This document shows, piece by piece, positions 10,510 to 30,035 of a stretch of DNA of 64,000 nucleotides. Location of the stretch: sequence record MH494197.1; one strand, written 5' to 3'. Positions within the stretch are counted from its first letter, which is position 1. Each line of letters opens with the position of its first letter. Source of the stretch: Escherichia phage CMSTMSU. Both the position numbers and the translations under genes were made by a program. The notes under the pieces are model-generated. The model was not told the DNA's origin. It did not search any database and was given only the letters and a program-made list of their open reading frames with translations.

Positions 10510-11283
10510 TCATTTCAATTTCGATTTGACGAGTGTGTGATGGTGTAAAACCATGCATCTCAAGTAAATCGTCTCGATGTTACGAACATTTTTCTCACTA
10601 TTAAGAATCGAACGGAAACTATTGTTAACGAACGAAGTATAGTAAGAGAAAGGATTCAACTGTACTGCTGGTTTATCTTTTTGTAAAGAATACTCTCTTT
10701 AAAGAGAAGTGCGTTTTAACTAATTGTATTCTGGCATCACCCATCATTTCATCCAAATATGTATAGTTTCTATAGTTGGATTTGTGTGAGATTTCCTCTG
10801 CCAGTTTAATGAACATTTTACCTAGTTCATTAGTGATTTTACCATGAACAGTGCTGAATTCTCCGTCTTCAAGATCACCTTTCCAGTGAGAACGAACGAC
10901 TTCGTACAGAATACCTTCTTCATCTACAATGTAATGTTTGAATGGTTCAAAATTAACTCTTGTATCTGCTGGGATATGTTCATCGGTAATTACACGAATA
11001 ACCACCTCATCGATAGGTACATCAGTCAGTACTAAATTGTGCTCATCTGCGTATTCCTTCGCTTTCTTCGCACTCATACCTTCTTTTCACGAATTGCATC
11101 AAGCATTTCATTGTTGAGACGTTTAATACGTGCTGCTTTAGCTTTATCTAAAAGTTCTGCTGTGATTTCGGATTCATCAAAACGATATAATCGTACATAC
11201 TGTAGCACTTATCAAGTAACCAGCAATATGAGATTTTACTTTTTGTATCTCACGAAGTAAATCAGCATTGTTAAGATACTTTT
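10510..11283 (-). CDS. gp55-like sigma factor for late transcription, frame-broken; N-terminal extent uncertain
   Basis: ELGKMFIKLAEEISHKSNYRNYTYLDEMMGDA and PFSYYTSFVNNSFRSILNSEKNV match my recollection of T4 gp55 conserved blocks; GGAGAG SD before ATG 11283. Confidence 0.5.
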
Positions 11284-11391
11284 ACGCTTCGGCCTATTTG
11301 TCATTATTTCAACTCTCCATGTTTTAAATCCAATAGGTACATTCCTTGTACCATCAATGTTATTATAGCACCAAAACGTCTTTGTCCCACG

Positions 11392-11399
11392 TATAAATA
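11392..11399 (+). promoter_or_regulatory. T4-type late promoter TATAAATA
   Basis: Exact TATAAATA about 35 nt upstream of first structural ORF on + strand. Confidence 0.55.
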
Positions 11400-11432
11400 C
11401 ATCAAATGTTCCTTCTTATGGAGAATCAAAAG

Positions 11433-12115
11433 ATGATTGATCGTAGAATCCGATTAAGACCTAAAACCGCAGGTGCTAACTATGTGTATGGTGATTTTGG
11501 CAACAGTTCAGAGCCAACATTGCTGTCGTTTCTGCGTCCAACAAATGGTTTGGTTTGGACTGTAACCCCAACTGTAACTGAACAAAGGTCGGTTCAATAT
11601 GAAACACAGTCCCTATACATACTAACAGTAACTACAACAACTACAAGAATACAACAAACACAATTTTCACTATCCAAGGTGAGTTTTATGCAAACACTGC
11701 TGCTGAAGCAATGTATGCATTGGCTTGTGTTCATTTTATTCGTTCCGTGTCCTTAATGGACTTTGGTCGTCAAGCAGCATCTGCTAATAATCCCGAACTA
11801 GCAATTGCAGGTGCACCACCGCCAATTTTACTATTAAGTGGGTATGGTCGTTATACATATAATGATATTCCTGTTATTTTGAAAGCATATAATTTTACAT
11901 ATCCAAATGATGTTTCTTACATTCAGGTTCCATTGAATAGTAGTGATAGTACTTTTAATTTATCTGATATGGATAGTCGTCAATTCTTCGAACAGCTTAG
12001 AAGTACTGGATATATGAATCCACAAGATGAGGTATGGGTTCCACAGAAAATATCTGTAATGCTTCAACTTGAAGAACAACCAACATCTGATTACATGACT
12101 AAAAGTTCAACCTAA
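11433..12115 (+). CDS. Baseplate structural protein (tail-tube-fold gp48/gp54-like is a guess)
   Basis: ORFs 11406..11756 and 11711..12115 joined by one frame break; GGAG SD before ATG 11433; position next to gp53-like gene. Confidence 0.45.
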
Positions 12116-12161
12116 ATGCATTTAAGCGTGGTGAACTATTACGTAATGGAGGATTTATCTA

Positions 12162-12476
12162 ATGTCCAATTATAGTCAATACTCTCCTTATGCAAAGGTT
12201 AAACAAACGTGGTATCTTGGTTACAATTTACCACGTGATATGGTTCCTGCTGATACTGACGACTTCTATGTAATTCCATTGAAGTATGAGCATCAACCTT
12301 GGCGTTTAGCATACGAAATGTATGGTAATGAACGTCTGTATTATGTATTTGCCCTATTGAATCCTGATATATTAGGAGAAGACCCAATATACAATTTTAA
12401 TAGTGGTATCACAATTCGTGTTCCCTCAAATCAACGAGTGCAAAACTATTTGAACGGTACTCGTAACATAGGTTAA
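12162..12476 (+). CDS. Baseplate wedge protein, gp53-like (LysM-like fold)
   Basis: YVIPLKYEHQPWRLAYEMYGNERLYYVFALLNPDI resembles gp53 pattern Y.I...P..LA...YGN..LY.V.L..N; intact ORF. Confidence 0.5.
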   Translation: MSNYSQYSPYAKVKQTWYLGYNLPRDMVPADTDDFYVIPLKYEHQPWRLAYEMYGNERLYYVFALLNPDILGEDPIYNFNSGITIRVPSNQRVQNYLNGTRNIG

Positions 12477-12487
12477 TGGAGTAAAGT

Positions 12488-13798
12488 ATGGCAGATTTAC
12501 AAAGTTCTGTTGATAATTTTAAAATGATATTTCAAACATCACAAGTTCTGCAAAGGCAGCAAAAGAAACTGCAACAAGTACTATTGAAAGCTTAAAAGCC
12601 ACTGCTAATACTTTGCAAAATGATCTTGAAAAAGTAAAAACAATTTTAAAGCTAAGGTTAGTAACGTACAGTCTTTACCAAAGCAAAGTGCAAGCGTTGA
12701 CCAAGTGTATGAAGACTTGGATCTAAGTGAGTTTGTTATTCCTTATGACAATAAATTGTTAAAGTATGACAATCCAACTTGGCACTTTTCCCGCATTAGA
12801 CAAGGATGATTTCAAAACTTCTGGCTTTACCCAGATGCTGAAGTTCAACGTCATGTCATCTCTGAAAGTGGTGTAACTGGAAAGTATAATATCACAAGTG
12901 TTCAGATGACACAAGCTGGTCCTTCAACTCGGGATGACAACCAACTATTGCTTCAACACAGCAGTACTGAACCTTTCAGAAAACAATAGTATGAGTTTAT
13001 ATGATGAACTAATTTCTTTAAGTAATAAACTAAGGTATCATAAGTTCATGGACTTACCTTTGATATTAGAATTGAAATTTATTGGATTCAATACTAATGG
13101 TGTACCTGAAACTATACCAGAAACAACTCGTAGATGGTCCGTGAAGATTAACAGTGTTACCGCTAGTGCATCACAAAGTGGTAGTACTATGCTGTATTCT
13201 ATGAGTCTTGTTCATAACCGTGCGGCTCTAGTGGATAATGTGGAATGGACTCTTAAAGAACCATTTACCTGCACAGCAGAAAACTTTGGTGATTTTTGTT
13301 TTGATTTGGAAGATAAATTGAATCAAATGGCAGACCAGCAATATGGTTATTTGCGTTATAAATTTGGTGAGTTAGCAGAAGGGAAGTTCTTTGAATTCAA
13401 AGTTGCACCAGATTTACAGGATTTGTTTATAAACTATGATTCTAAACAGATGGCAGAAGCTGGAGCTACAAAAAGTGGTGCACAGGGTTCTAAAACTTTT
13501 CATGGAATCCAAGTACTCCAATTTCTCGAATTATCGATGACGTAATAGATACCTGTACTGTACAGGCTGATGATAGTACTAGTGTTCGTCAATTTGTTAA
13601 TATAATCCCACTTAAACAGTATGTTGGATTTGATAATTACCGAAACACGTCAGTTTATAAAGTTGTTTTCTATATAGTTCGTTTTAAAATTGGTGATATT
13701 GTTCATGAATCCGATTTACAGCCAGAAAACTTTACATTTGAGTATTTCTTTGAAAATGCCGAGAAATATGTAGACCCAAATGACCAAAACCAAAGATT
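12488..13798 (+). CDS. Structural protein (about 436 codons), frame-broken; function unknown
   Basis: ATG 12488 MADLQSSVDNF...; continues through ORF 12934..13545 and to stop near 13798 via frame switches. Confidence 0.4.
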
Positions 13799-13801
13799 AA
13801 C

Positions 13802-14727
13802 ATGAAAACTTACAATTATCAGTTTAGTGGACTCAATAGTGAGATTCTAGACCTTGATTTGAAGTTTGATCAGCAATTCTTTGTAGCTACAACTCGTAAC
13901 CCGGTCCAATACAGGACGTTGCGAACCATGCTGGTACACACATCACAAGAATTGAATATCCAAGGTGTTCAGTACAACAGTATACCAGATGCGTGGGCAA
14001 AACAAGTGATTTACGCGTCACACGTGATCTTGGTGGTATATTAACACAGGCACAAGAGCAACTTTTAAATCGAGTAGAAACTTTAGCAAGAGAACAAATG
14101 CAGGTTGGTAATGCTGAAGAACAGGATCGTTATAATAACTATCAAGTAAACGTTCTACCACAGTATATTGAAGATTATGTAACCACATATGAAGAAAATG
14201 ACGGTGGAACCGATGGAATTGGTCATCGATATGGTGAAGTATTCACAATGCCAACTGAAGCAACCAATAATGAAACAACATTATCTGCATCATTGAACGA
14301 TAACAGTAGTACATATGAAATGGACCGCCGTAAAATTCGTGACAACTATTACAATCGTCCATTCTTGTGTAAATTGGATATGCGTGTAGTTGGTGACCCA
14401 TATTGGTTAGGTTGGAGTGATTATTCATATATCCAATATCTTGAACAGGTAATTAATGGAGAAGATATGGAAATTAATCCAGAAGATTACCATGTAGCAA
14501 ACTACATTACATCTGAAGCATATCTTTTATTGAAATTACAACCTGTAGTTTCTATAAATGATAACACTGGTGTTCTTGATATTAATACCCCAACTACATT
14601 TAACCAAACTGTTTATCGTGTAAACAAAATTGTTCATGATTTTGGTGCAGGTGGATCATTTACACAACAAATTCAGGCTGCAATTGTAATTCGTGCACTC
14701 AAACGTCACGATAGTATAATTGAATAA
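13802..14727 (+). CDS. Structural protein immediately upstream of spike gene (hub gp27-like role by position only)
   Basis: ORFs 13802..14044 and 13993..14727 joined by one frame break; TAACATG stop/start junction. Confidence 0.4.
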
Positions 14728-14740
14728 GGAATAATTTAAG

Positions 14741-16255
14741 ATGGCAGATACAAGTAAGAAATATGCCCAACAACAGTTGGGTCGTTTTGACCCTTCGTAT
14801 CCACAACTAGCAACCGTGATGGATAACCGTGACCCAACTAAATCCGGTAAGCTAAAAGTGTGGATTCAAGGTTCACAAAGTGATAAAAATTCAAAAGAGT
14901 CATGGATTGAAGCATCATACATGTCTCCATTCGCTGGTAAAACTCGGGATACCAAGTGCTGATGCTTATGGTCAATATCCAAAGGGATATGGTTTTGGGC
15001 AGTTCCACCTGATGTCGGATGTACTGTTGTTGTTATATTTGCACAAGCAAGAACATTCCAAGCGTATTGGATTGGTTGTGTTTATGACCAACGTATGAAT
15101 ACGATGGTTCCGGATGGCTACTGAAATAAGCAATTATGCAGGTACTGATATGCCATTACCCGTAACTGATTATGACCGTAATACAATTTCTACCAGTACT
15201 CAAGACAAATATGCAAACGTTCCAATTATTGCAGGTCTGAAAAACAAAACTTACTTTATGATGAGGAAGCGGGTGTTGCTAACCGTAGCAGTACTCGCCA
15301 AACTACCAGTACTGTTTATGGTCTTTCCTCACCTCGTGGTAACAGTTTTATTATTGATGATGGTTACACAGAAGAAGAATTAACAGCACCTACATGGGAT
15401 CAAGATCCAGATGGTTATCAGGATACCCAATTCAATAACCCAGTGAACGATACTCGTGTTGGTTCTCGTAAAAATGAAGGCGTTGTAATTAAAACACGTA
15501 GTGGTGCACAGTTGTTGTTATCTGAAGCCTCTGGTGATGTTCTTTTAATTAACCGTGATGGTACTGCACGTATTAAATTCACTGGTGAAGGTGACATTGA
15601 AATGCACTGTGATAAGAATATTAACATTCGTGCAGGACAAGATATTAACATGGTTGCGGGTCGCTCATATAATATTGAAAGTGGAGCAGACTTCAATGCT
15701 CGTGTTGGTGCAAACACTAAACTAGATTTGGTTGGTGCATTGGATGCTAAAGTTGGTGGTCAGGTTGTTATTAACGCTGGAGCAGATTTACGTTTAGTAA
15801 CAGCAGCTTCATTACGTATGCAAAGTGGTAGCAGTACTGATATAACTGCTGGTTCTAATGCGTCAATCTCTGCTGCTACCAGTGCTAATCTTATTGGTTC
15901 TTCATCAGCTATTATTAGTGGTGGTGGTCAAACCCTTACTGTTAACAGTGGTGGTAATAGTGGTACTGCTGAATTTAATGCACCAAACTTCCGCACCCCA
16001 TCTGCTGGCTTGAATGATCATATACATGATATATCGGCTTGGGTTGATGCAGAGAATCACGGCAGTACTGTTGAACCTCCACGTCAAGGTGGTGGTAGTG
16101 GGAATAGTGAATCCCCAGTTCAACCCGAACCTGCTAATGATGTAGCTCCAACTTTAGCTCCAGTACAGGACACTGAAGCAATTCAATATGTAAATTATAC
16201 AACAGAAACAGAACAAGTTCAAACACAAGATTTAATGACTTCTGATCCGGCATGA
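14741..16255 (+). CDS. Baseplate central spike protein, gp5-like: N-terminal OB-fold plus C-terminal beta-helix; no lysozyme domain inside
   Basis: YGFWAVPPDVGCTVVVIFA OB-fold-like segment (frame-joined 14741..15098); long Gly/Ser/Ala/Thr beta-helix-like repeats in ORF 15443..16255. Confidence 0.6.
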
Positions 16256-16620
16256 CTGGTTATAGCATTACGTATGAAGGTCTTCATATGTTCATGCCGT
16301 GTAGTGGAACCATTCGCCAATACGGTTATTGGGGAAAGGTGTCCCGACTAGTGGTGGTGGTAAAGCTGATAGAAGTGGCTGGGAAATACAGTGCAAGGGT
16401 GATGTTGTAGCTCCAGATGGCGGTGTAGTTGTTATCACTAATGGTGCTTTATTGGTTCAACATAAGTCTGGATATAAATCTGTATTTTATAATATTCAAT
16501 CAGATTTGCTCAATAAAGACGTTGTTCAAAAGGTCAAGTTATCGGGAAAGCAAATGGTGTTATACAATTTGAAATACGAGTAACTTCTGCCAACGTACTA
16601 GGATTTAGTGGTTCTGTTGA
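16252..16620 (+). CDS. Degenerate LytM/M23-peptidase-like domain (possibly N-terminal part of the following lysozyme-domain protein)
   Basis: APDGGVVVITNGALLVQHKSGYKSVFYNIQ...ANGVIQFEIR resembles M23 fold ending HLHFEIR, but His ligands replaced; two frame breaks. Confidence 0.3.
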
Positions 16621-17393
16621 CCGGATTATTTTATGCATCACAGACTGGCACAGGTTCTGAAGCGGGAAATAAAACATTAATTGCAGGACAAGCAACGAAC
16701 CAAGCAGCACCGAAAGCTGTTGTTCAACCTTCTGTTGATAGTGATGAATTAGTTGTCACAACTAAAATTAAAACTATCGGTACTGGGTATTCTCAACGTG
16801 GTTCTCGTCATGTCCCTCGTCGTAGAAGAACACAACGTTCAGGTGGTACTCCAGTACCTACGGCACAAGAATCATACAATGTGGGTAATGTTGATAAGAC
16901 TGCAATTGATTGGAAAGTTGTTCCGGGTGATTCACAATTTATTTCTGAATTGAAAGAATATGAAGGAACAATGGCGTATCAACAAGCTAAAGGATATTAC
17001 CGCAATGGTAAATTTTGGAGATATTTGGATAGTCGTGGATTCCCAACTATTGGTTACGGTCACTTGATTGTTAGTGGTGAAAACTTCTCTGGTGGGATTA
17101 CCGAACAGGAAGCCAATGATATGTTGGTGCGTGATAGTAGTAAGGCTATATATGACGCAAAATCCATTTACGCTTCTTATAAGATGAAAACACCTTACAT
17201 GGCACAACAAGTTCTATGTCAAATGGTATTCCAGATGGGTAAAGGTGGTGTAATGAAATTTAAGTCAATGCTATCTGAAATGGCAAAAGGTAACTACAAG
17301 CAAGCTGCTGCTCAAATTCGAAATTCAGCTTGGTATCGTCAAACTACACGCCGTGCTGAATTAATGGCACGTAGATTAGAGGCATGTCAATAA
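16605..17393 (+). CDS. T4-lysozyme-family (GH24) muramidase domain with about 100-aa N-terminal extension; likely virion-associated lysin
   Basis: EYEGT...YLDSRGFPTIGYGHL...QMVFQMGKGGVMKFKSMLSEMAKGNY...NSAWYRQTTRRAE matches T4 lysozyme catalytic E/D/T and C-terminal helices. Confidence 0.8.
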   Translation, partial: LVVLLTGLFYASQTGTGSEAGNKTLIAGQATNQAAPKAVVQPSVDSDELVVTTKIKTIGTGYSQRGSRHVPRRRRTQRSGGTPVPTAQESYNVGNVDKTAIDWKVVPGDSQFISELKEYEGTMAYQQAKGYYRNGKFWRYLDSRGFPTIGYGHLIVSGENFSGGITEQEANDMLVRDSSKAIYDAKSIYASYKMKTPYMAQQVLCQMVFQMGKGGVMKFKSMLSEMAKGNYKQAAAQIRNSAWYRQTTRRAELMARRLEACQ

Positions 17394-17405
17394 ATATTTC
17401 AGTAC

Positions 17406-17413
17406 TATAAATA
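17406..17413 (+). promoter_or_regulatory. T4-type late promoter TATAAATA
   Basis: Exact TATAAATA 18 nt upstream of ATG 17431 with GAGGAAA SD between. Confidence 0.55.
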
Positions 17414-17430
17414 ATAATGAGGAAATCTTT

Positions 17431-17914
17431 ATGAGTAAATGGGAAATCAAAAATACCGACGAACAATTTTTAAAGAAATTAAAGAATTTGAAGGTACTAT
17501 TGCGTATCAGAAAAACTTGGTTATTTTAAAAATGATAAGTTTTGGGTATATAAAGACAGTCTAGGTCTTGATACCATTGGTTACGTCACCTTGTACTTAA
17601 GGGTGAAAGTTTCAAAATGGACTCACTGAAGCAGAAGCTGATGCTCTCCTTATAAAAGATGCTCAGACCGCTTACAATGACGCAAAATCAATCTATGATC
17701 AATTTGGAATGACTGCTCCAGTACAGGTTCAGCGTGTATTGTGGTTTATGGTGTTCCAAATGGGTAAATCAAAAGTTTTAAATTTCAAAAAGCGATGGCT
17801 GCTCTCGGTCGTGGTGATTATAAAACTGCTGGTAAAGAAATGCGTGATAGTTCGTGGTACAAACAAACCACATCCAGAGCGGAGAAGATGGCTCGCATCG
17901 TCGAATCCGTATAA
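17431..17914 (+). CDS. e: Stand-alone T4-lysozyme-like endolysin (GH24), frame-broken in this sequence
   Basis: Frame-switched reading MSKWEI...FEGTIAYQ...DTIGYGHLVLKGE...VLWFMVFQMGKSKVLNFKK...SSWYKQTTSRAEKMARIVESV; paralogous to 16605..17393. Confidence 0.75.
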
Positions 17915-17929
17915 TAAAGGAAACACATA

Positions 17930-18321
17930 ATGGCAATTGTTTTAAAGGTTTTTCAACTCCAGTGGTTGGAAGAACTGAAACATTGTATGACAGTGAATTG
18001 GTTCGTCAGGATTTAATGAATCATTTCAATACAAAAAAGGTGAACGTGCATTTGATGCTGATTATGGGTTCATTGCGTGGGATTTGCTATTTGAATTGGA
18101 TGGTTATAATACAATCAACCTTTTGGAAGCAGATGCCCGTAGAATTATTAGCTTGGACCCACGTTTAAGCTTAAAGAAACTTCAAATATCAAGAATTGAG
18201 TACGGTTATCAGATGGATATAGTACTTGAATATGTTATTCTCAATACTCTTGAAGAATTAACTATAGTTTTGATGCAAGAAGTAACAACAGAATGGCTAC
18301 CTATTCTGTATCATCTTTTAA
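17930..18321 (+). CDS. Baseplate wedge protein gp25-like (GPW/gp25 family)
   Basis: ETLYDSELVRQDLMNHFNTKKGERAFDADYGFIAWDLLFELDGYNTINLLEADARRIISLDPRLSL; AAAGGAAA SD; one frame break. Confidence 0.55.
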
Positions 18322-18326
18322 ATTAT

Positions 18327-18356
18327 AAAAGCACTCTTCGGGTGCTTTTCTTTTGG
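18327..18356 (+). terminator. Rho-independent terminator
   Basis: AGCAC-TCTTCGG-GTGCT hairpin followed by TTTTCTTTT. Confidence 0.55.
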
Positions 18357-18421
18357 ATAAATATTTCTATATATAATTCCCAGTACTGAACTAGTACTTT
18401 ACTGATTTAAAGGAATAAATT

Positions 18422-21400
18422 ATGTCACAACAAAAAGGCAATCAAATTTATACGCTGGTGAAGATTGGACTCAAGTATATGAAAGCTTTTATAAGATCAA
18501 TCTAACAGCTTATGACTTTGATACAATCCGTCAAAGTATGATTGACTATCTACGTGCTACGTACCCAGATTCTTTCAACGACTGGATCGAAAACGACCAG
18601 TTCATCTTTATTCTAGATACCATTTCTATGCTAGGACAGAACTTAGCATTCCGTATGGATTTAAACACTCGTGAGAACTTCCTAGATACTGCTACTCGTC
18701 GTGCATCAGTACTGAAACTCGCAAAAATGATTTCTTATTCTCCACGCCGTTCATATCCAAACGCAGTTGCTAAATTAACAGAAATAAAACCAACCAAGAC
18801 GTTCGTAATAGTTTTAACGAATCACTTAAGGATAAAATCATTCGTTGGAATGACCCAATGGACACAAACTGGTATGAGAACTTCATTCTAGTTATGAACA
18901 GTTCATTTGTCAGTACTAACCAGTTTGGTAATCCGGTTAAACGTATCGATATCAATGGTGTTTCTCGTCAGCTATATCGTATGAATACAATTCCAATGTC
19001 AGCACCAAGTCTTCCATTCACAGCTACAGTTAATGGTGAATCGATGACATTTGAAGTTGTCAACCCTGATATTACAGCAGTTGGTGTTGAAGAGCGTCAC
19101 CCTGAACCACAAGAGCAAAAATATATCGTTTATCAGAATGATGGTAACGGATTTAGTTCACCAAATACTGGTTTCTTCGTTTATTTTGTTCAAGGGACAT
19201 TGACATACCAAGATTACCAATATAATATTCGTGAAGAAAACCGTATCCAAGACATCAACGTAGATAATATCAACGAAACTGATGTTTGGGTTCAGGAAAT
19301 CAACGAAGATGGTATTGTACGTACTAAATGGACCAAAGTTCCATCTATGGAAAGTATCGCATACAATACGGTTAACCGTCAACTAAAACAATCTTTGCTG
19401 TCACAACTCGTGATAAAGACCAGATTACTATTAAGTATCCTGATTCTCGTAGTGGTGTTGTTCCTCGTGGACGTATCGTGTATGGTATCGTGTTAGTAAT
19501 GGTGAAACATACAACATTAAAACGTCTGAAATCCAGAACAAAAGTGTAAAATACACCTATAGAACCAAAACACAATCAAGCTATGAATCCAGTACTTTGG
19601 ATATTCGTTTCACATTGCAATATGAATCAGATCGTGCACAAAGTGCAGAAACAATTGAACAAATTAAGGCTCGTGCTCCACAAATGTATTACACTCAAAA
19701 CCGTTTTGTTAACGGCGAAGACTATAACATTGCTCCGTTGAGTTTGGGTAACACAGTTCTTAAATCTAAAGCAATTAACCGTTTATATAGTGGACAGTCA
19801 CGATTCATTGATATTAATGATCCAACTGGTAAGTATCAAAACACTGATGTGTTTAGTGATGATGGTTCAATGTATCAAGAAAACACACAATTTAATAAAT
19901 CTTTACAATTACCAACTACCAAAACAAATGCTAGTATTGTAATTGATAATATTCAGCCATTGATTGGTGAGAATGCTGTAATCCAACGTTATCAAGCATA
20001 TCCACCGAATACAATTGGTATTGAAATTCAACAAAATGGACACCTGAATACAATTCTAATTACGCAACTAATACGTATGGTCGTATTATGGGAGCAACAG
20101 GTAACGTATTCGGAAATTATCAAGTTGGTACGTTGATTAAGTTTTCAAATGCCGGAACCACTGTGTGGGCTAGTATTGTTAGTGTTCTTGATAATGGATA
20201 TTACGTTCTAAGTACTTCAGTTTCATCAAATATGCAAGCACAAGAGTACATTTTACAATACAGAACACGTTTTAATAGTGTCGAAGTGCAAGCAATCGCT
20301 GCAATGCTTGATAAAAAGACAGATTTTGTTATTATTCATGATAAAGAAACAACTTCTTGGATTCCATTAGAAATCAGTACTGATGAAGATACTATTTCTT
20401 ATAATGGAAATGAAGTTCTTGTTATGATTAACATCAAATATACTGCTGAAACATGGGAATTTGATGCGAATGGCGTTGAATATGTGTTCGTTGGTGGTGA
20501 TAAAGTTCGTTTTACTTCGTTTCTTCTAAAAAGATAACTGATATTAGTACTGGTAGTGTTCAAAGTGACAAAATTGAAATTTTATCATCAAATACCACAA
20601 GCAATAGTAATGCTGGGTTAACAAGTAACATTGATTTCCAAATTTATGATACAATTCAACAAGAAAACGGTTATCTTGATGGATCTCGTGTGATTATCAC
20701 CTCTGAAAATGTTGATAGTAATGGCATTCCACTAGAACCTAATCAATTCAGAGAAATTGTACCTAATTGGACTGGTGAAGATGCAGTTAAATATGGTGGT
20801 ATATTGGTTTTCCAAGAAAATGATGACTTCACTATATCAGTACTGTCATTACCGAGCGATACTTTCACTATTCTTGATTCTTCATGGGCTTATACAATGG
20901 ATCAGGCACTTGCAGAAACTAATGCGTATAAGAGAAGTGAATTTGTTCGCAACAATGCTATTCGCTCAACAACATTGAGTGGTATCTATAGTAAAGGTTC
21001 AGGCTTTATGGTTGGCTTTAAATACGATGGTAAATATTACTTCATAGAACAAACTGTTGGTAATAATAATGACCGTTTAAACCAATTAATTGAGAACTTG
21101 ACCTATTCTGATGATACAACTGCTGCAACTCCTGAACTTGCGTTTTATCGTGCTATTGTTAATATCGGTACTAATGCTGATGTTAACCAGAAGTTAGATT
21201 ATTATGGTTATAAAGATGTAACTTCACAATATACCGTAAAACGAATGCAAGAACTGGTATTGACTTCCACTGGAAACATTATGCACCAGATGATAATCGC
21301 ATTGACCCAAGTAGAACAAACTTGATTGACATGTATGTATTAACCAATTCATACAAAACTGAAGTTGATGTATGGTTGAAGAATGGAACACAAGGTAATA

Positions 21401-21872
21401 TGCCTAAACCGCCAACATCTGTTGAATTGAAAGACATTTTTAAAGAAGTTGAACAAAAAATAGTCATCAGTGACAGTATTATTTGGCATAGTGCAGAATA
21501 TCTACCATTATTTGGTGCGAGTGCTGCTGAAGATTATAAAGCAGATTTCAAAGTTGTAAAATTGCCTAACAGTACAATGAGTGATGATGAAATTCGTCAA
21601 AATGTCGTAGCACTAACTAACGAGTATTTTAATGTTGATAACTGGGACTTTGGTGAAAGTTTTATTACACAGACTTGTGTACATACATTCATTCCCAATT
21701 AGGACGACATATTAGTACTATTGTTATCGTAGCTCAAAATCCTAACTCTAAATTTGGTTCACTATTTGAAATACCTTCACGTTCTGACCAGATTTTCTTA
21801 AGTACTGCATCAGTTGATAACGTACAGATAGTCAATTCCTTGGCTAAGAGTAACATTAACATTGGTTCATAA
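18422..21872 (+). CDS. Baseplate wedge protein gp6-like (N-terminal about 700 codons) plus contiguous downstream reading that may hold a second baseplate gene; frame-broken
   Basis: YDFDTIRQSMIDYLRATYPDSF...LDTISMLGQNLAFRMDLNTRENFLDTATRRASVLKLAKMISYSP aligns with T4 gp6 N-terminal block from memory; ORFs 18538..21872 chain by frame switches. Confidence 0.55.
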
Positions 21873-21878
21873 CACATT

Positions 21879-21905
21879 AAGGCGTTCTTCGGAACGTCTT
21901 TTTAT
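21879..21905 (+). terminator. Rho-independent terminator
   Basis: AGGCGTTC-TTCG-GAACGTCT hairpin followed by TTTTTAT. Confidence 0.55.
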
Positions 21906-21938
21906 ATCATAAATAAATCAAATGAATGAACGAATTAT

Positions 21939-23563
21939 ATGGAGTCCAAAATGACTAATAATTTTAAGTTTCAACCTACACAGATGGCTGAAGCAGTACA
22001 GAAGAAGCTTTTCATAAAAAGATTGCCTGAGTGGATGCAAGGCTTAGAAGATATTCAGAAAGTCAGTGATGATGTTATCCAACAATGGTTTAATCCGGCT
22101 GAAAACGAATTAGTTGACGGCTACATTGGTGACATGGGTTCTCCGGCAGCAGCAGGGAACATCTTCTTACACGAGTCAACAGTCGCACGTCAACTATATC
22201 AGTTGTCCTCTGCGTATGTCTCAAGAAATGATGACTCCAGCATTCGTTCAATTCAATTTTATGATGATCTAGTTGGTTATATGAATCATTACGGTGCACT
22301 AACCGAAAATGAAAGCCGTTTGTTTAATGGTAAGTTCTATTCATGGACCCACCAATTAACCCAAATAAAATGAACAACTACAGTTCATACCTATGGGATT
22401 CCAAGAATAGCTATAATATCACAACTCCAGATTATATTGTAATGGAACGTGGTGCAGAAAATGGTAACACTTGGTCACTACAAAACTTCTGGTACACATT
22501 AGGTGAAACTTTAGAAGATGGTACAATCCTAACTGAAGAACTAATGCAAGATTCCGTTTTGTTCGTGCTCGTGCTCCAATTATCGAATACAATAAAAATA
22601 TCGAACTAATGAACTACGGTACTAAATTCCGTGGACAGTTGATTTGTTCTCTGATATTATTAAACCTGAAGATATCGTACAAAAAGATATTAACAGCGGT
22701 ATACGTATTGATGGTATTATTCCACAAGATGGTATGCGTATTCTTTTCACCAGTATTGGTAACAATGGTGAAAACAACCGAATTTATAAAGTATATGTTA
22801 AACGTATGCAAGATGGAACACGTGTGTATGGTCTAGCATTAGACCCAGACGAAGAATCTGAAAGCCGTCCGAGTGGTGAACCACAAGATGGTGACGTAGT
22901 TCTTATTATCAAAGGTAATGAATTTGGTAACAGTTCCATGTATTGGGACGGTTCTCATTGATTCAAGCACAGTCTAAAACTTCTGTGAACGTATTTCCAC
23001 AATTCCAATTGTATGACCGTAATGGTGTTAAACTAAACAACACTACTACCTATCCATCAAGTACTTTTACTGGTTCTTCATTATTTGGTTTTAAAATTAA
23101 CTATAATTATGCAACCGATAGCGTTTATGGTTATAACATTGAACTGGGTGATTACAATTATTACACCTATGAGAATTTCCTACAATCAACTCGTTATACT
23201 TACGAGCATTTGGGTGTGGAAGTTGAAATTGATGGACTATATTACTATAACGTAATTGGTGAAGGTAATACAATGAACCTAGAAACTGATTGGGTTCGTA
23301 GTACTGAATACTCCAAACAATATGTTAAACAAACTCCACAGGTTGAACGTACAGTAATGTTCCGCGTGTTCAGTACTGTTTATGACATGGAAAGTTTCAA
23401 AGAACCAGTTGAAGGAATGTATGCTTATGTAATTGAAGTTGACCGAACTTATCAATATTACAAAGCAGAACGTGAAACATATCTTGATTGGCATGTTATC
23501 GTTGGTGATGGAGTACAAAGCGTTAAGTACAATCATACATTTGAATTGGCACAAAAGTACTAG
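21939..23563 (+). CDS. Baseplate/fiber structural protein segment (boundaries uncertain)
   Basis: ORFs 21939..22373, 22343..22609, 22644..22961, 22943..23563 chain into one reading via frame switches. Confidence 0.4.
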
Positions 23564-23571
23564 ATAATTCT

Positions 23572-26150
23572 GATGATATTATCGAACTAGTTGTTGATGG
23601 TGTGGAAATAAAAGAATACACCAAAACTGTAGTTAATAATCAAGTACAAAGTATTACAATTGATAGCTCTGTTGATTTGGATGAAGATTCTGTTGTACAA
23701 ATCAGAACTTATAGTAGCACTATCACTCCTAATAAAGAGTTGGGTGCATATGAAGTTCCAATTAACCTACAAAATAACCCATATAATTCAAACATTGAAT
23801 ACATCAACCAAGGTGATTACACCTGCACTTCCAAGATATTATTCAAAAGAATATTACATCTGGTTCTGCTGATGACTTTAACAATTACGAAGAACGTTTG
23901 GCTGCTGGTTTGGTTAATAATGGTGTAGGTACTAAAATTATTCAAAACGAAGCGTCTATGCTACCACTAATGGCACATACCGCTAATGAAGATATTGATT
24001 TGTTTGAATCAATCATGTTTATGCAAGCAGAATACTTCCGCTTCATCAACAAGTTCAACACTCAAATGCTTCGTTTGTATGAAGAAGACCCAAGTGCATT
24101 TCTTGGTAATAGTGCATCAAACATCGTAGATGCGATTCTAACAGCTATTAATATGGGACGTGATAGTACATTCCCATTCTACTATGACAACGTTGCAAGC
24201 ACTGCTGGGTTTATTCGTGCATTTGTCCCACCAACTCCACAGTTCTTGGGTATTTTGCAAGCTTATACGCCACAAAAAGCAACATTCTTAACTGCTGGTA
24301 GTAAATCTAGCTGGTATAATATCAGTCATACTGGTATTATTTCAAAAGCATACCGTGTTATCAATGGTGTTGATAAAATGGATGACGTTGTTTTCGAATT
24401 GGAGAATCGTATCTTTAATAGTATTGACCTTACTTTCAAGGATATTGATTATAAACCAGTACTAAACAGTGAAGACCTATTCCCAACTCCATATTTCACT
24501 GGTACTGATTATAGTGCAGAAGAAAAGAAAACTCTATTGCTACGTGGTTACATTAACTTCACAGCAACCAATGGTATTAGTAACAGTACTCATGATTATG
24601 ATGCAAATAACTGGAGAACTTGGAACTATACTGGTAGTTATTATGTTGTTGATGGTCAGCGTACTGAAATTCCTGCTCGTGGTTCATGGCGTGCAATCTA
24701 TACTGATCAATACGGAACATATCGTCCAGCAACCCACCCGTGGGAAATGATGGGCTTCTCTCAACGTCCTACTTGGTGGAACCAAGAATACGAACCAACC
24801 GCAGTTCAAGTTGGTGAACGTGAGGGTGATGTTGTTTATGTGTATGAAGCACTAGTAATGAATGAAAGTGGTGATTTGGTCCCAAGTGGATTGTGGGATA
24901 TTGATGGTACTATCGGTGACAGCAGCACTGGCACTATTTTGTCCGGTGAACGCCGTGGTCAATATGACAAATACAAGCGTTTCGGTGTACAGCCATTTAA
25001 AATCACTAAGACTGGCGAGAAAACCAGTACTGGTATTGATATTTGTGAAGTTGAGTATATTGCACCTGAAGTTTTAGGTCTTGTTAGTGGTAATTTGGAT
25101 CATCGTGCAGAACCGTGGGCTTATGGTGACATGGGTGACATGGAATTCACTTACATGAACACTGCGATGTTTGCTTATGACCAAATGCTTCTTCTATACA
25201 AAGCAAAACCAGCACAGTTTGCAAACTATTACTGGGATACCCGTAATGATAACCTTAAACCAGTTTATACTGATGGTTCACAGTTCCTTTATGGTGAAAC
25301 TCGTAAGCGTCTAAACTTTGACAGTACTACATTAGTACATGGTGAGAAAAACACCCGTACTATCGGTTATCAAATGTTTGTTAGTGACTATTTGATGTAT
25401 CAGAACAAGAACATTACCACCAAATACGGTGACGTTGTTCGTTCTTCTTATGTTAATGTTGCTCACAAAATTGGTGGCTTTACTAAAGCAGACCAATTGA
25501 CATTCACTGCTAAATCTTTCGGTTTGATTTCACAAGAAAACCAAACTATCGGTCTAGTTCGTTCCAATAACATTCGCGATGAGCAAATGAGTGCAGTAAA
25601 AATTACTTGGAATGGTAGTGCATATCAAATTGATGGTTATGATTTAGTTGGTGCTAAATTTAAATATAAAATTCCAGTTAAAAATGGAAGAAAAGTAACT
25701 CTTAAATTGGAAGACAGAACTGTTGTTCATTACAATGAATGGAAATCTGAAGGTACATTAGAATATGGTAAAATATTCAATACATACCAAGAAGTTTATA
25801 CTTTCATTTGTGGATATGGTGAATATCTAAAAGAACATGGCTGGATTTTTGAAGATGTAAATGATAGTGGTGCTCAACAAGACTGGACAACTATTGCTAA
25901 AGACTTTGTTATTTGGAGTCAGAATAATTTAAGTACTGGTGAGTTCATCTCCTGTACTCCAAGTGCAGCTAATGCTAAATTTGGTGCAGATTTTGGTTCA
26001 GTTCAATCTGTTACACAGAACAGTGGTGGTGTTTGGTCATTACTTGATGATGAAAACCAAGGTATCCGTCAATATGAAATCGAAACGTCGCGTATCGGTA
26101 ACGTATTCACAGTGAGAACTACATCCGAATCACAAAACGTATGGCGTTGA
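23572..26150 (+). CDS. Baseplate/fiber structural protein segment (boundaries uncertain)
   Basis: ORF 23898..26150 (750 aa) continuous with upstream 23602..23928 by frame switch; reading continues from previous segment. Confidence 0.4.
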
Positions 26151-26159
26151 TTCGTTTGA

Positions 26160-27530
26160 GCCTAAGTTCATATGAACACGCAGTTGTTTTGATGATAAAA
26201 CTATCTTTGGCGATTACATTTACCAACCAACTTATGGTGCTATTCAAGAATTGATTAAAATGTATGGTTACATTACTGGGTCATGGACTGGTCGCCTACA
26301 AGCACCGGTTTCATTATCCTAGAAGCAGGAACTTTACCATCATTTGAAAAATTAGTAACTGATTTTGAATTATATTATAATAGTGAAACTCCTGTGAGTG
26401 ATGTTCAGCTTCAAGAGTTATCAAATCACTTGATTGGCTATCAAACTCGTGATTATCTACAACGTATGATTAGTAGTGATGTTAGTCGTGTTGATTTCTA
26501 TAAAGGATTCATTCATGACAAAGGTACTAACCAAGTAATGGAAAAAGTACTCGCGTTTCTAAATCTTACGACACTGATGAATATAAAGCACTACAGGAAT
26601 GGGCATTTAAGATTGGCACTTATGGTAATATCAATGGTAAGAAAAATCTACAATTTAAACTAATCAATGACCAATTTAAACAACAACCACAGATGGTTTC
26701 GTTTGATGTTAATGCTACATCAAATGGTACTGGTAATGGTATTGTTTATTACGGTGAACAAGGGGTTGACTCACGCTGGATTACTCGTCCAAATGGTAAG
26801 TTTTCATTCCCAATGCGTAGTGGAAGAAGTGAGAATATCCAACTTCCAGACATTGGTCCTGTAACACTAGATGAAATTTCATACGTTACTAAAGATTTCA
26901 GTACTGCATATAATGATCGTATCAATTATATGAATAACAGTGGTGAAATCCCAGATTCTGTATGGATGTTTAAAGATGGTAATGATTTGTGGAATATTTT
27001 CGAACTAGTAGACACTGAAGTTGAGATGCTCTCTATCGTTCCAATTGAAAATACCGATGTATATGCAGAACAATTCTGTAAAGTAACTCTAAGTGATGAT
27101 ATCCCACTAAATGATGGTGATTATTATTACTTTGTTGATGAAACTAACTTTATGCCAGATACATTGACTATAGAAAGTCAATATTATACTGCGGGTAATG
27201 ACCCTAGAGTTATGGTAGTTCCGTTTGACACTTCAATCACTATTGACTTCACTGATCCTGATACTCGCCCACGCTTGTATCGTTATGTTTCACGATTCAG
27301 TACTGAAGAGATGCGTCAGGAATACATTGACAGAAAATATAGTTTTAAAGCTCCACAAAGTACTTTGTTTGACCGCCCAACCACATATGATGAGCGTACT
27401 AACATTACTGCGTTGTACCTAAACGTGTTTGACCCAATCAACGGTGTTATTCCGGTGCAGCGATGCAGAACGTTACCTACACATCTCCAGTTGACCCAGC
27501 ACAATACAACAGCAATGGTGAATTGATTCA
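26160..27530 (+). CDS. Baseplate/fiber structural protein segment (boundaries uncertain)
   Basis: ORFs 26283..26663 and 26693..27526 joined by frame switches. Confidence 0.35.
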
Positions 27531-30035
27531 AGCATGGGGTGCTGATAAAGTTGGTCAGGTTTGGTGGAACACCAGCACTGCTTTCTACTTAGATTACACT
27601 CGTGCAATCTATGATGCTGATGGTAATGTGGATGTTGATGCAACAAATGAATATAAACGTTATAACTGGGGCAGATTGCTACCGCACAGTACTGTTGATG
27701 TTCTTGAATGGGTATGTTCGCCAGTTGAACCATATAACTGGGACAAATACTGCAAAGACGTTGCTAACAAAAATAAAACAACACTATGTACCTACCAAGT
27801 GGAACCGCATTGGAAGATAATTATAGTACGTTCTTAGAATATGATAGCACAACTGATACTTATGTTACAAAATACTATTTCTGGGTACGTGATACAATCT
27901 ATGTACCACCATTGCATTCCAGAACTAAATCTTGTACTGATATTGCTCGTATTATTAAAGAACCAGCACAGCTTAACATTCCTTGGTTTGCACCAATCAA
28001 TGAAAGCTCGTTCATTCTAAGTAATATGCAATTTGAAGTCAACGATGACACAAGTATTTTAACTGTTTCTTATTACATGGATAATACTGAAGTTATTAAA
28101 CATGACCAGTATCAATTATGTAAAGAAGGTGATAGCTATAACTTCAATCCATCAATCTGGACTTCTATGTGGAATTCTATGATCGGTCAAGAAACTACTG
28201 AATCAGGAACTGTTATTGATTTACTATATCCTTTAGTACCAAACGGTTTAGGTTCTAATAAGACTTGGTTCCAAGATGTAATTGAAGCTCGTAGAAACTT
28301 TGTAGAAAGTGCAAATAACTATTATCGCTCACAGAATATAACAACTAACACTGTTCTAATGGACGAAGTGTTTAATGTTAAAACTACTGAAGTTAACCCG
28401 AATGAAGTATCATATCGTGTACTAACTTACAATAGTGAATTAGTCATTGCACCTGAAAGTGACAAGTTCAAAGAAAACGACGCAGTACTAGTAAGTACTA
28501 GTGGTGTATTACCTAACCCACTATCAACTAGCTCTGTATATTTTGTGCATATTGATGCTAATGGTTATATTCATCTAATGAATAGTCCATCAAGTGCTGG
28601 TAGTGTGGTTACCATTACATTGGAAAACCGTGGTGAAGGTCAACAGAAAATGATTAAACAATCAGACTATGTTGAAGCACTAGGAACTTCATTGGACATG
28701 ACCCAGTACTGGTCACTAGCAGATTGGTATGATATTGGCTACGATAAAAATACTGCATATACACAAGAATCCAGCCTAGAAGATGCAAACACTAAGAACT
28801 ATCAAGTTGGCGACATTATCAGAATTACAGATGTTGATGGCATCTGGACATTGTACATTAAAGCACAATCACGTGATTCAGTTTACTGGAAAGCAATTGG
28901 TCGTGAAAATAGTACAGTTGAATTGAATGATATGTTATACGCTGACTATACAGTTCGTGATGCTAATGGTTCGTTGAGTAATCGTGAGATTAACGTTCGT
29001 AAAGCACTAGCTTTATTGAAGAACTCATTCGACTTACATCAGAGTGAAATTGTGTTTGATATGGTTAAGTATGTTCACGTAGAACAAAGCGTTGTTGATT
29101 GGGTATTCAAAACATCTTACATTTATATTGTAGGTTTAGAACAATCATTAGTACAGAACTATTCCAACGACAACTTGATTAATCAAATCGTTGAGTACTT
29201 TGAAGAAGTTAAACCATATAGAACTAAGATTCGTTCCCAGATTGAACAGAAAACTTCAGATGATGATTTAATTAAAGGTTTGTGTAATGATTTAGATCCT
29301 AATGGCTATATATTTGCAGATGGGACTTGGGTTAAAACGGAAAAAGACATTTGGGATTATGAATATGCTCAATTCAATGAGGTAACTCAACGTTGGGAGC
29401 AAGTTGGTGAATTGCCAAGTGATTTCGTAGCACCTAATCGCCGTTTCCAAGAAATTGATGTTATCATGCACTACGACAACACTCAATGTAAACCAAATGA
29501 TAATTTGGCAAGTGTTGATGTATTGGAAGAAGTGAATAAGAAATATCAATCTAATGCACAAGATGTTGTTAGTAATTTTGAATTACAACGTTACAAATAT
29601 ACATTCCCAGAATACAGTGATGAAGATTTCGACCTATTGGTTGCTTATCAGATGCAATTGTATTACCCAGAATTGAACGTAACTCTAGGGATTGCTTACG
29701 GTGTTAACCAATGGTATGCAGACCATGCAGATGATTTGGTAGCAACCGCAGAATTCACAGAAACGTTGAATCGTGTATATAAAGAATCAACACAAAATGA
29801 AATGTTTAATGACGTAAATCATTACGTTCAGTATAACACACTCTCTAACCGTTTGAAATTGTACACAGGTGCAGATGATGAAGTAATTCATGATGAAGTT
29901 GGATGTGGATTTAGTGGGTTAACCTATGATGATAATCCAAGCACCAGACTACCGTTTGGTTATGCATCCAGTACTGATTATAACTTTGGTTACTTTGAAG
30001 TTAGTAGTGAGTTGTATAAAAGTATGTTTCTTTAA
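27531..30035 (+). CDS. Baseplate/fiber structural protein segment (boundaries uncertain)
   Basis: ORFs 27463..27837 and 27786..30035 (749 aa) joined by frame switch. Confidence 0.4.

What the first reader, a model, noticed from the sequence alone, without database searches (positions are those of the whole stretch)
14741..17914. Split spike/lysin arrangement: gp5-like spike without lysozyme, then a degenerate M23-like plus GH24 protein, then a second GH24 endolysin
In T4 the lysozyme domain sits inside gp5. Here the spike gene (OB-fold plus beta-helix) is followed by a separate reading with an M23-like segment lacking the expected His ligands and a clear T4-lysozyme-type domain. A second stand-alone GH24 gene with its own TATAAATA promoter follows. 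This suggests a virion-associated lysin separate from the endolysin.
Basis: partly seen in the sequence, partly recalled or inferred. Interest (0 to 1): 0.5.

Follow-up and report, generated by a model that had tools for sequence, protein, structure and literature searches.

The report
Jumbo-phage tail spike fused to lysozyme
The apparent "split" between a tail spike and a separate cell-wall-cutting enzyme comes from sequencing errors: it is one already-described 887-residue spike protein of RaK2/PBECO4-type giant phages that carries an inactive peptidase-like domain and a lysozyme at its end, followed by a small duplicate lysozyme gene.

Summary
The window is an error-rich (nanopore-type) assembly of an Asteriusvirus-like jumbo coliphage, 98.7% identical to phages BF17 and fEgEco12. 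Against fEgEco12 it shows only deletions: 35 in homopolymers, 7 at CCWGG sites, 7 elsewhere. No CCWGG survives in 64 kb.

[quoted passage not shown] The "split spike/lysin" is therefore an artefact.

- gp5/VgrG OB-fold and beta-helix;
- an invariant HxH motif;
- a C-terminal GH24 lysozyme with its catalytic residues intact.

The 162-aa GH24 gene (17431-17914) is a 50%-identical, gapless paralogue of the spike's C-terminus. It has its own TATAAATA late promoter and appears co-transcribed with gp25. Two distant syntenic relatives lack it. Its endolysin role is unproven, because a third, membrane-anchored LysM-GH24 protein is the literature's predicted endolysin.

The RaK2 (2013) and CBB (2017) papers already describe this architecture, including the M23 hint and virion mass spectrometry. 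Interest is low.

The parts
14741..17393 (+). Single gene for the 887-aa central spike / tail lysozyme. It is broken in the window by 8 deletion events totalling 11 missing bases: 14945/46 (2 nt), 14992/93, 15111/12 (2 nt), 15239/40, 16248/49, 16330/31, 16527/28 and 16622/23 (2 nt).
   Evidence: The corrected ORF is 887 aa with 1 aa difference from fEgEco12 g332. It matches PHROG 13211 over 887/887 positions at 1770 bits.
14807..15085 (+). gp5/VgrG-type OB-fold domain (aa 23-116)
   Evidence: Pfam Phage_base_V at 29.8 bits, above the 23.8 cutoff. A profile of aa 1-452 hits the VgrG OB-fold region.
15467..15994 (+). Beta-helical spike shaft (about aa 245-420)
16019..16027 (+). HxH motif (H429-I-H431), a candidate histidine cage (iron site) of a P2 gpV-type apex
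   Evidence: H429 and H431 are invariant in 80 sequences. HxH is the signature used to identify spike apex domains (bioRxiv 10.1101/2023.02.25.529910). Metal binding is inferred, not shown.
16291..16679 (+). Degenerate LytM / M23-like domain (about aa 520-650) with the zinc ligands replaced
16911..17390 (+). C-terminal GH24 (T4-lysozyme-type) domain (aa 728-887)
17406..17413 (+). TATAAATA, a T4-type late promoter motif, 17 nt upstream of the small lysozyme ATG. The ribosome-binding site GAGGAA lies at 17419-17424.
   Evidence: Sequence. There are only 2 copies in 64 kb (6.7 expected), and both sit just upstream of late structural genes. RaK2 also has TATAAATA 37 nt upstream of its small lysozyme ORF073. 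ATAAATA was proposed as the late promoter of Rak2-like phages (PMC5259590).
17431..17914 (+). Stand-alone 162-aa GH24 lysozyme gene, a paralogue of the spike's C-terminal domain. It has 5 single-base deletions in the window: 17466/67, 17510/11, 17584/85, 17613/14 and 17786/87.
   Evidence: The corrected product is identical to fEgEco12 g331. It is 50% identical over 159 aa without gaps to spike aa 728-886. Pfam Phage_lysozyme at E 4e-9.
17930..18321 (+). gp25-like baseplate wedge gene, downstream of the small lysozyme in the same apparent transcription unit (coordinates approximate because of frameshifts)
   Evidence: Pfam GPW_gp25 at E 1.5e-8 on the fEgEco12 orthologue. Annotation.
18327..18349 (+). 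Terminator-like hairpin with a T-run, closing the lysozyme-gp25 unit. The next ATAAATA is at 18357.
   Evidence: pattern matches only.

Best explanation
Window 14741-17393 encodes one 887-residue central tail spike of a RaK2/PBECO4-type jumbo myovirus.

Proposed mechanism, with status of each step:
1. The N-terminal half (OB-fold, trimeric beta-helix, HxH motif) is the membrane-piercing needle at the tip of the tail tube. The homology is shown. The trimer and the metal site are inferred.
2. Behind the HxH motif each chain continues through a Pro/Gly/Gln-rich linker into a non-catalytic LytM domain and then a catalytically competent GH24 lysozyme. Both are shown by sequence, profile and fold.
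3. On sheath contraction the spike carries three lysozyme copies through the outer membrane. They open the peptidoglycan locally for the tail tube, as the T4 gp5 lysozyme does, but with the cargo at the C-terminus as in 'evolved' VgrG spikes such as V. cholerae VgrG-3. This step is inferred.
4. The LytM domain has lost its zinc ligands. It most likely acts as a peptidoglycan-binding, positioning or packing module rather than as an enzyme. This step is inferred.

The eight frameshifts that break the gene in the window are assembly errors.

The downstream 162-aa GH24 gene arose by duplication of the spike's 3' end. It is expressed from its own late promoter together with gp25. Its role is unresolved: a soluble accessory endolysin or a baseplate-associated lysozyme.

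The confidence of 0.85 applies to the single-gene architecture and the sequencing-artefact explanation. The inferred mechanistic steps (3 and 4) are less certain, at roughly 0.6.
For: Sequencing artefact:
- Only deletions, at homopolymers and at all CCWGG sites.
- The corrected ORF is 1 aa from fEgEco12 g332.
- Intact 887-aa ORFs are annotated in fEgEco12 and PBECO4.
- 86 protein clusters of 869-984 aa share the architecture.

Domains:
- Pfam and PHROG hits; PDB sequence and profile hits.
- Ligand loss and catalytic-residue conservation; invariant HxH.

Virion location of homologues:
- phAPEC6 Gp241 and CBB_240 were found by mass spectrometry.

Duplication:
- 50% gapless identity between the small lysozyme and the spike C-terminus.
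- In distant relatives L004 and L005, gp25 directly follows the spike gene.
- All listed cultured Rak2-like phages have 3 GH24 places per genome, 2 in one partial record.

Transcription unit:
-.
Against: - No experiment here shows muralytic activity, trimerisation, metal binding or where the C-terminal domains sit in the virion.
- An HxH cage also occurs in tail fibres as a simple trimer clamp, so it need not mark the tip.
- A 455-residue extension beyond an apex is not described for P2 gpV-type spikes.
- RaK2 gp078 itself was not detected by mass spectrometry.
- The AF2 model is a monomer, and its pTM of 0.49 says nothing about how the domains are arranged.
- The role of the LytM domain is purely inferential.
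Confidence: 0.85

Rival explanations
1. The genes really are split: a lysozyme-less spike, then a separate M23-like/GH24 virion lysin. The cause would be genuine frameshift mutations, pseudogenisation or programmed frameshifting.
For: In the window as given, the spike reading ends at 16255 and new readings start at 16252, 16329 and 16608.
Against: - The break at 16248/49 is a 1-nt deletion inside CCTGG.
- The same error class hits every gene across 11 kb: 49 deletions, 0 insertions, all 8 CCWGG sites destroyed.
- The spike part itself would be split into four or more pieces, and so would essential genes such as gp25.
- Fully annotated relatives, fEgEco12 at 98.6% nucleotide identity and the more distant PBECO4, carry one intact 887-aa ORF.
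Confidence: 0.02
2. The stand-alone 162-aa GH24 is the phage's (or an accessory) endolysin. It would be a soluble cytoplasmic lysozyme made late and released to the wall through holin lesions, like T4 gene e.
For: - Intact GH24 with catalytic Glu, Asp and Thr and no signal sequence.
- Its own late promoter and a strong ribosome-binding site.
- One GenBank record (Turkey3) annotates an endolysin under the matched stretch.
Against: - It sits inside the baseplate module and is apparently co-transcribed with gp25. The lysozyme-gp25 adjacency holds even in RaK2, where four ORFs separate it from the spike.
- No holin or spanin neighbours.
- The group has a third GH24 with an N-terminal anchor and a LysM domain, which the literature predicts to be the endolysin.
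- gp25, a genuine baseplate protein, was also missed by mass spectrometry in CBB and phAPEC6, so non-detection is weak evidence.
Confidence: 0.45
3. The stand-alone GH24 is a baseplate- or virion-associated lysozyme, or an assembly factor, that works with the spike and gp25. It would be a trans-acting counterpart of the fused domain.
For: - Genomic position and the sub-operon with gp25.
- Conserved next to gp25 in RaK2.
- Conserved in all cultured Rak2-like phages.
Against: - Never detected in a virion proteome.
- Distant relatives build the same baseplate module without it.
- The GenBank annotation is homology-driven, through the gp5 lysozyme domain.
Confidence: 0.35
4. The M23-like domain is still an active endopeptidase that uses alternative metal ligands, which would make the spike a bifunctional muramidase/peptidase like phi29 gp13.
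For: - The fold is a well-predicted LytM fold.
- A few family members keep His at the first ligand position (5 of 87), and the window has Glu at the Asp position.
- A distant spike relative, P0118, carries an intact M23 (HPGVD, YGH, HCH).
Against: - The positions equivalent to the catalytic and ligand His of YxH and HxH are Asn/Asp/Gly, Val/Ile/Thr and Glu/Gln/Thr, with no His among the residues listed for them.
- The closest structural and profile matches include the inactive LytM factors EnvC, DipM and SpoIIQ.
- The window protein scores below Pfam's M23 cutoff.
Confidence: 0.05

Closest known systems
[quoted passage not shown]
   Same: It is the same protein. There is 1 aa difference from fEgEco12 g332, and it matches PHROG 13211 over the full length. 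The gene neighbourhood is the same: 750-aa structural protein, spike, small lysozyme, gp25, wedge, giant protein. The unusual domain order and a possible M23 domain were already noted in PMC3622015 and PMC5259590.
   Different: Nothing substantive differs. The window copy is merely corrupted by assembly errors. Details I did not find in the papers I could search are: the loss of the zinc ligands in most or all family members, the invariant HxH motif ahead of the cargo, and the duplication origin of the small lysozyme.
Bacteriophage T4 gp5 (tail-associated lysozyme / central spike)
   Same: OB-fold, GH24 lysozyme and triple-stranded beta-helix in one spike polypeptide. The lysozyme domain hits the gp5 lysozyme at E 1e-11 to 6e-10. 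It sits in a baseplate cluster with gp25, gp53 and gp48 homologues. The presumed function, local peptidoglycan digestion during penetration, is the same.
   Different: T4 has the order OB, lysozyme, helix and a separate PAAR tip (gp5.4). Here the order is OB, helix, HxH, LytM, lysozyme. The lysozyme is therefore C-terminal to the needle, there is an extra LytM domain, and the protein is 887 rather than 575 aa.
'Evolved' T6SS VgrG spikes with C-terminal effector domains (e.g. Vibrio cholerae VgrG-3 with a peptidoglycan-degrading domain; from general knowledge)
   Same: The OB-fold and beta-helix are homologous (Pfam DUF2345; PDB VgrG hits at E 3e-6). The enzymatic cargo is appended after the beta-helix, so it travels on the needle.
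   Different: There is no gp27-like N-terminal module: the profile aligns only to the gp5-like part of VgrG, residues about 360-615. It is a phage virion protein, carries an HxH motif, and its cargo is LytM plus GH24.
P2 gpV / phi92 gp138-type spikes with an iron-loaded apex
   Same: OB-fold plus beta-helix followed by a universally conserved HxH motif.
   Different: In gpV-type spikes the HxH apex is near the C-terminus. Here about 455 residues follow it. Iron binding and tip geometry are untested.
Degenerate LytM factors (E. coli EnvC and NlpD, Caulobacter DipM, Bacillus SpoIIQ)
   Different: Those are cellular regulators or adaptors of amidases or of a sporulation channel. This domain is embedded in a phage spike and fused to a lysozyme. 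No specific sequence affinity to EnvC was seen: the active LasA scores best, while EnvC scores E 0.05.
phi29 gp13 (tail-knob protein with lysozyme plus M23 endopeptidase; from general knowledge)
   Same: A virion-borne protein that combines a muramidase-type domain and an M23 domain for cell-wall penetration.
   Different: phi29 gp13 is not a spike/OB-fold protein. Its M23 domain is active and C-terminal, and its lysozyme is N-terminal. The host is Gram-positive.

Membership tests
gp5/VgrG-type central spike | N-terminal OB-fold (Phage_base_V) | tested here: met
   PF04717 at 29.8 bits, above the 23.8 cutoff, aa 23-116.
gp5/VgrG-type central spike | Beta-helical shaft homologous to VgrG/gp5C | tested here: met
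gp5/VgrG-type central spike | Trimeric assembly at the tail-tube tip; present in virions | not testable with these tools
   The only evidence is from the literature: homologues were detected by virion mass spectrometry in phAPEC6 and CBB, and RaK2 gp078 was not detected.
T4 gp5 architecture | Lysozyme domain inserted between the OB-fold and the beta-helix | tested here: not met
   The lysozyme is at aa 728-887, C-terminal to the helix (about 245-420).
P2 gpV-type apex | Conserved HxH motif after the beta-helix | tested here: met
   H429 and H431 are invariant in 80 sequences. The criterion is from the paper read.
P2 gpV-type apex | HxH near the C-terminus, forming the tip with a buried iron ion | tested here: not met
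   455 residues follow the motif. Iron binding cannot be tested here.
Peptidase M23 (active metallopeptidase) | LytM/M23 fold | tested here: met
Peptidase M23 (active metallopeptidase) | Zinc ligands and catalytic His (HxxxD, YxH, HxH) | tested here: not met
   The window has R547, E551, N587, V610 and Q612. No His is listed at 587, 610 or 612 in the 87 sequences; His at 547 occurs in only 5. The mapping of N587 and Q612 is supported by HMM alignments to lysostaphin and SpoIIQ. The mapping of the HxxxD positions rests on motif inspection.
Peptidase M23 (active metallopeptidase) | Pfam gathering score | tested here: not met
   18.1 bits for the full protein and 23.4 for the isolated domain, both below 28.7. 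The score of the best member (E 7e-11) was not reported.
Degenerate LytM regulators (EnvC/NlpD type) | LytM fold with lost metal ligands | tested here: met
Degenerate LytM regulators (EnvC/NlpD type) | Binds and activates a partner hydrolase (amidase) | not testable with these tools
   No interaction or activity data are available.
GH24 (T4-type lysozyme), spike C-terminus and 162-aa protein | Phage_lysozyme domain above the curated cutoff | tested here: met
GH24 (T4-type lysozyme), spike C-terminus and 162-aa protein | Catalytic Glu, Asp and Thr (T4 lysozyme E11/D20/T26 equivalents) | tested here: met
   E745 and D767 are conserved in 86 of 87 sequences and T773 in 61 of 87. The paralogue has the aligned EFEG, YKDS and DTIGYGH motifs. 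The Glu-Asp spacing is 22 residues against 9 in T4 lysozyme (sequence inspection).
Endolysin (for the 162-aa GH24) | Lysis-cassette context (holin/spanin neighbours) or an export signal | tested here: not met
   The neighbours are the spike gene and gp25. There is no N-terminal hydrophobic segment (sequence).
Endolysin (for the 162-aa GH24) | Required for lysis; absent from virions | not testable with these tools
   Not detected in two virion proteomes, but gp25 was missed there too.
T6SS VgrG | gp27-like N-terminal module fused to the gp5-like module | tested here: not met
   The protein starts with the OB-fold. PDB VgrG alignments cover only VgrG residues about 360-615.

The most novel reading that the evidence does not exclude
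The ligand-less LytM domain between the spike's HxH motif and its lysozyme could be a regulator rather than inert packing. Like EnvC/NlpD, it might recruit and activate host periplasmic amidases (AmiA/B/C) at the penetration site. Alternatively, it might gate the fused GH24 domain until the spike reaches the periplasm. Either would be a phage-borne use of the bacterial degenerate-LytM activation mechanism, delivered on a needle whose cargo hangs beyond an iron-cage apex.
Probability: 0.1. Interest if true: 0.65.

Novelty: already known. Interest (0 to 1): 0.15.

Why it matters
- For the scan: this window is an unpolished long-read-type assembly. Every CCWGG site and many homopolymers carry deletions, so any 'split gene', 'degenerate ORF' or 'frameshift' finding in it must be checked against polished relatives first.
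- For biology: the locus is the known central spike of RaK2/PBECO4-type jumbo phages. It delivers a lysozyme as C-terminal cargo behind the needle, which is a different solution from T4 gp5 and resembles evolved VgrG spikes.
- Still uncharacterised: the role of the inactive LytM domain, whether the HxH motif forms the tip, and what the duplicated small lysozyme does. These are modest open questions for phage-entry specialists and for people mining phage lysins.

Tried and rejected
1. I read the window ORFs at face value and rejected that reading after comparison with relatives.
2. NCBIfam gave nothing useful beyond a weak GH24 hit.
3. A single-sequence Pfam hit to M23 was below the cutoff and could have been dismissed. 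I tested it further with a family profile, per-member scans and a fold search, and it held.
The mapping of the HxxxD positions therefore rests on motif inspection.
5. I looked for a third GH24 in the window by tblastn and found none. It lies outside the window in relatives (fEgEco12 g275).
6. I searched for structural work on this spike. The phiKp24 cryo-EM paper does not describe it, and no paper in the searchable library links LytM to this spike beyond the CBB remark.
7. I considered that the HxH motif proves a gpV-type tip. I downgraded this, because the same motif also clamps tail fibres and no PDB apex hit was obtained.
8. I did not use the second structure job, the representative-library search or the metagenome scans. 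They would not change the verdict.
Full report
**What the window is.** Window 14000-19000 matches 39 phage records. The best matches are Escherichia jumbo phages BF17, EC.P1 and fEgEco12 at 98.6-98.7% identity, followed by PBECO4/121Q-type Asteriusvirus at about 85%. The 5,001 query bases span 5,028 bases in those records, so the window is shorter.

A base-by-base alignment of window 11001-22000 with the fEgEco12 locus L001 shows 79 substitutions and 49 internal indel events. All 49 are deletions in the window:
- 35 lie in homopolymers of four or more bases;
- 7 lie at CCWGG sites;
- 7 lie elsewhere.

All eight CCWGG sites of the reference stretch are destroyed, seven by deletion and one by substitution. 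The whole 64-kb window contains no CCWGG, although about 49 are expected from base composition. This is the signature of uncorrected long-read basecalling at homopolymers and Dcm-methylated sites. That attribution rests on my own knowledge. The pattern itself is a tool result. It is not a biological feature, and it fragments every gene in the region, including essential ones.

**The observation.** Filling the gaps with the reference bases turns 14741-17393 into a single 887-codon ORF. [quoted passage not shown] Likewise, 17431-17914 becomes a 162-codon ORF identical to g331. Eight deletion events (11 bases) interrupt the first gene and five interrupt the second.

It falls at residue 505, in an interdomain linker. 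fEgEco12 and PBECO4 annotate one 887-aa CDS here. The corrected protein matches PHROG 13211 over 887 of 887 positions at 1,770 bits. A search of 5.8 billion proteins returns 86 clusters of 869-984 residues, down to 34% identity, that cover 97-100% of the query (aa 1-706). The 'split' is therefore an artefact.

**The domains are real.**
- Pfam finds Phage_base_V (aa 23-116) and DUF2345 (aa 278-329) above their cutoffs. It finds Phage_lysozyme (aa 765-882, E 1e-10) and a sub-threshold Peptidase_M23 hit (aa 550-607, E 0.003, 18.1 bits against a 28.7 cutoff).
- A profile of aa 1-452 from 17 family members hits VgrG and contractile-injection-system spikes (E 3e-6), the cyanophage A-1(L) and Klebsiella KP1 central spikes, and the T4 gp5 beta-helix in PDB.
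- A profile of aa 503-660 from 36 members hits M23/LytM structures: LasA 4e-7, SpoIIQ 2e-6, DipM 5e-5, zoocin A 1e-4 and EnvC 0.05. 31 of the 36 members individually hit PF01551, best 7e-11.
- An AlphaFold2 model built on 80 homologues has mean pLDDT 80, with 85-92 across the LytM-like and lysozyme domains.

**The M23-like domain is degenerate in most or all family members.** At the positions equivalent to the M23 motifs the window has R547 and E551 (HxxxD), N587 (the His of YxH), and V610 and Q612 (HxH).

Across 87 aligned sequences, position 547 is Arg in 71 and His in 5. Position 551 is mostly Ile. Positions 587, 610 and 612 show no His among their listed residues. The mapping of N587 and Q612 is supported by HMM alignments to lysostaphin and SpoIIQ. 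The HxxxD mapping rests on motif inspection. The domain is best described as a non-catalytic LytM domain of the kind seen in EnvC, NlpD, DipM and SpoIIQ.

A distant spike relative, P0118 (619 aa), carries an apparently intact M23 at its C-terminus (HPGVD, YGH, HCH). Peptidoglycan-hydrolase cargo on this spike lineage therefore takes more than one form.

**The lysozyme looks active.** The T4-lysozyme E11, D20 and T26 equivalents are E745, D767 and T773. They are conserved in 86, 86 and 61 of 87 sequences.

**An HxH motif precedes the cargo.** H429 and H431 are invariant in 80 sequences, and they lie directly after the beta-helix. In P2 gpV-type spikes three HxH motifs form a histidine cage around an iron ion in the apex, and the motif is used to recognise apex domains. 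It also occurs as a trimer clamp in fibres (bioRxiv 10.1101/2023.02.25.529910). Here 455 residues follow it, which is unlike gpV. Whether it forms the tip is an inference.

**How it most likely works.**
- Shown: one polypeptide combines a gp5/VgrG-type needle with a C-terminal LytM-GH24 module. Homologues are virion proteins: phAPEC6 Gp241 (95.9 kDa, 7 peptides; PMC7247149) and CBB_240 (3 peptides; PMC5259590).
- Inferred: on tail contraction the trimeric spike carries three lysozyme domains through the outer membrane. They digest peptidoglycan locally for the tube. This is functionally like the T4 gp5 lysozyme, but the cargo sits behind the needle, as in evolved VgrG spikes. The LytM domain serves binding, positioning or packing rather than catalysis.

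**The second lysozyme.** The 162-aa protein is 50% identical, without a gap, to spike residues 728-886. It is therefore a duplicate of the spike's 3' end.

Distribution:
- It is present in all listed cultured Rak2-like phages, which each have three GH24 places per genome (two in one partial record).
- In two distant metagenomic relatives with the same gene order, gp25 follows the spike gene directly (L004 and L005). It is thus a lineage-specific addition.

Expression:
- TATAAATA (17406-17413) lies 17 nt upstream of its ATG, with GAGGAA as the ribosome-binding site.
- The octamer occurs only twice in 64 kb (6.7 expected). Both copies sit just upstream of late structural genes.
- RaK2 has one 37 nt upstream of its orthologue ORF073.
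- ATAAATA was proposed as the late promoter of Rak2-like phages, which encode a gp55-like sigma factor.
- A terminator-like hairpin at 18327-18349 follows gp25. Lysozyme and gp25 therefore appear to form a late sub-operon, and in RaK2 the lysozyme stays next to gp25 although four ORFs separate it from the spike gene.

Whether it is an endolysin is open:
- It has no export signal and no holin neighbours.
- It has not been seen in virion proteomes, but gp25 was also missed in CBB and phAPEC6. [quoted passage not shown]
- The group has a third GH24 with an N-terminal hydrophobic anchor and a LysM domain (fEgEco12 g275, outside the window). This is the type the CBB paper predicts to be the endolysin.

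- Simoliunas et al. [quoted passage not shown] They also listed three lysozymes per genome.
- Buttimer et al. [quoted passage not shown]

The following details I did not find in the searchable literature, and they are incremental:
- loss of the zinc ligands in most or all family members;
- the invariant HxH ahead of the cargo;
- the duplication origin and sub-operon of the small lysozyme.

**Verdict.** The anatomy is confirmed, the headline interpretation is refuted, the feature is already known, and interest is low. The most novel reading not excluded is that the LytM domain acts as an EnvC-like activator or gate. I put its probability at about 0.1.

Noticed in passing
whole window (1-64000); examples at 12927, 13898, 14942, 15107, 16244, 16619, 16920, 18754: The window contains no CCWGG at all (about 49 expected). 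All 8 CCWGG sites of the homologous fEgEco12 stretch are deleted or mutated, and 35 of 49 deletions shorten homopolymers. The window is therefore an unpolished long-read-type assembly of Dcm-methylated DNA, and all ORFs in it are likely to be fragmented artificially.
   Followed up: yes
fEgEco12 PP777464.1 118272-119198 (L007:13273-14199), outside the window: Third GH24 paralogue of the phage group (g275, 308 aa). It has an N-terminal hydrophobic segment, a LysM domain and a GH24 domain. This matches the type predicted in the CBB paper to be the signal-anchored endolysin.
   Followed up: partly
protein P0118 (619 aa, metagenomic): A distant relative of the spike carries an apparently intact M23 peptidase at its C-terminus (HPGVD, YGH, HCH motifs) instead of LytM plus GH24. 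Different wall-hydrolase cargos therefore occur on related spikes.
   Followed up: partly
window 11392, 17406 (TATAAATA); 18357, 21909 (ATAAATA): T4-type late-promoter motifs are depleted overall (TATAAATA 2 against 6.7 expected; ATAAATA 13 against 25). The copies listed here in the baseplate module lie just upstream of structural gene starts. The same placement is seen in RaK2 and in a distant metagenomic relative (L004: 1744 and 8037).
   Followed up: partly
window about 21950-32000 (+): A giant ORF follows the baseplate wedge gene (fEgEco12 g328, 9,972 nt, 'hypothetical protein'). Counterparts of 3,321 and 3,508 aa occupy the same position in distant relatives L005 and L004. Its function is unknown.
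   Followed up: no
spike protein aa 681-700 (window about 16770-16830): A strongly conserved basic stretch (consensus SIGSGYSQRGSRHVPRR) lies in the linker between the LytM and GH24 domains and is followed by a low-confidence segment (aa 702-719). It could be a processing or docking site.
   Followed up: no
window 12486-14727 (+): The 750-aa 'virion structural protein' immediately upstream of the spike gene (fEgEco12 g333; phAPEC6 gp240, found in virions) has no Pfam match. By position it could be the gp27-like hub partner of the spike.
   Followed up: partly
window 32001-34000: There is a local GC rise (0.42 against about 0.35-0.38 in the flanks) with negative GC skew. It roughly coincides with a minus-strand gene annotated in fEgEco12 as a Clp ATPase subunit (g327).
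   Followed up: no
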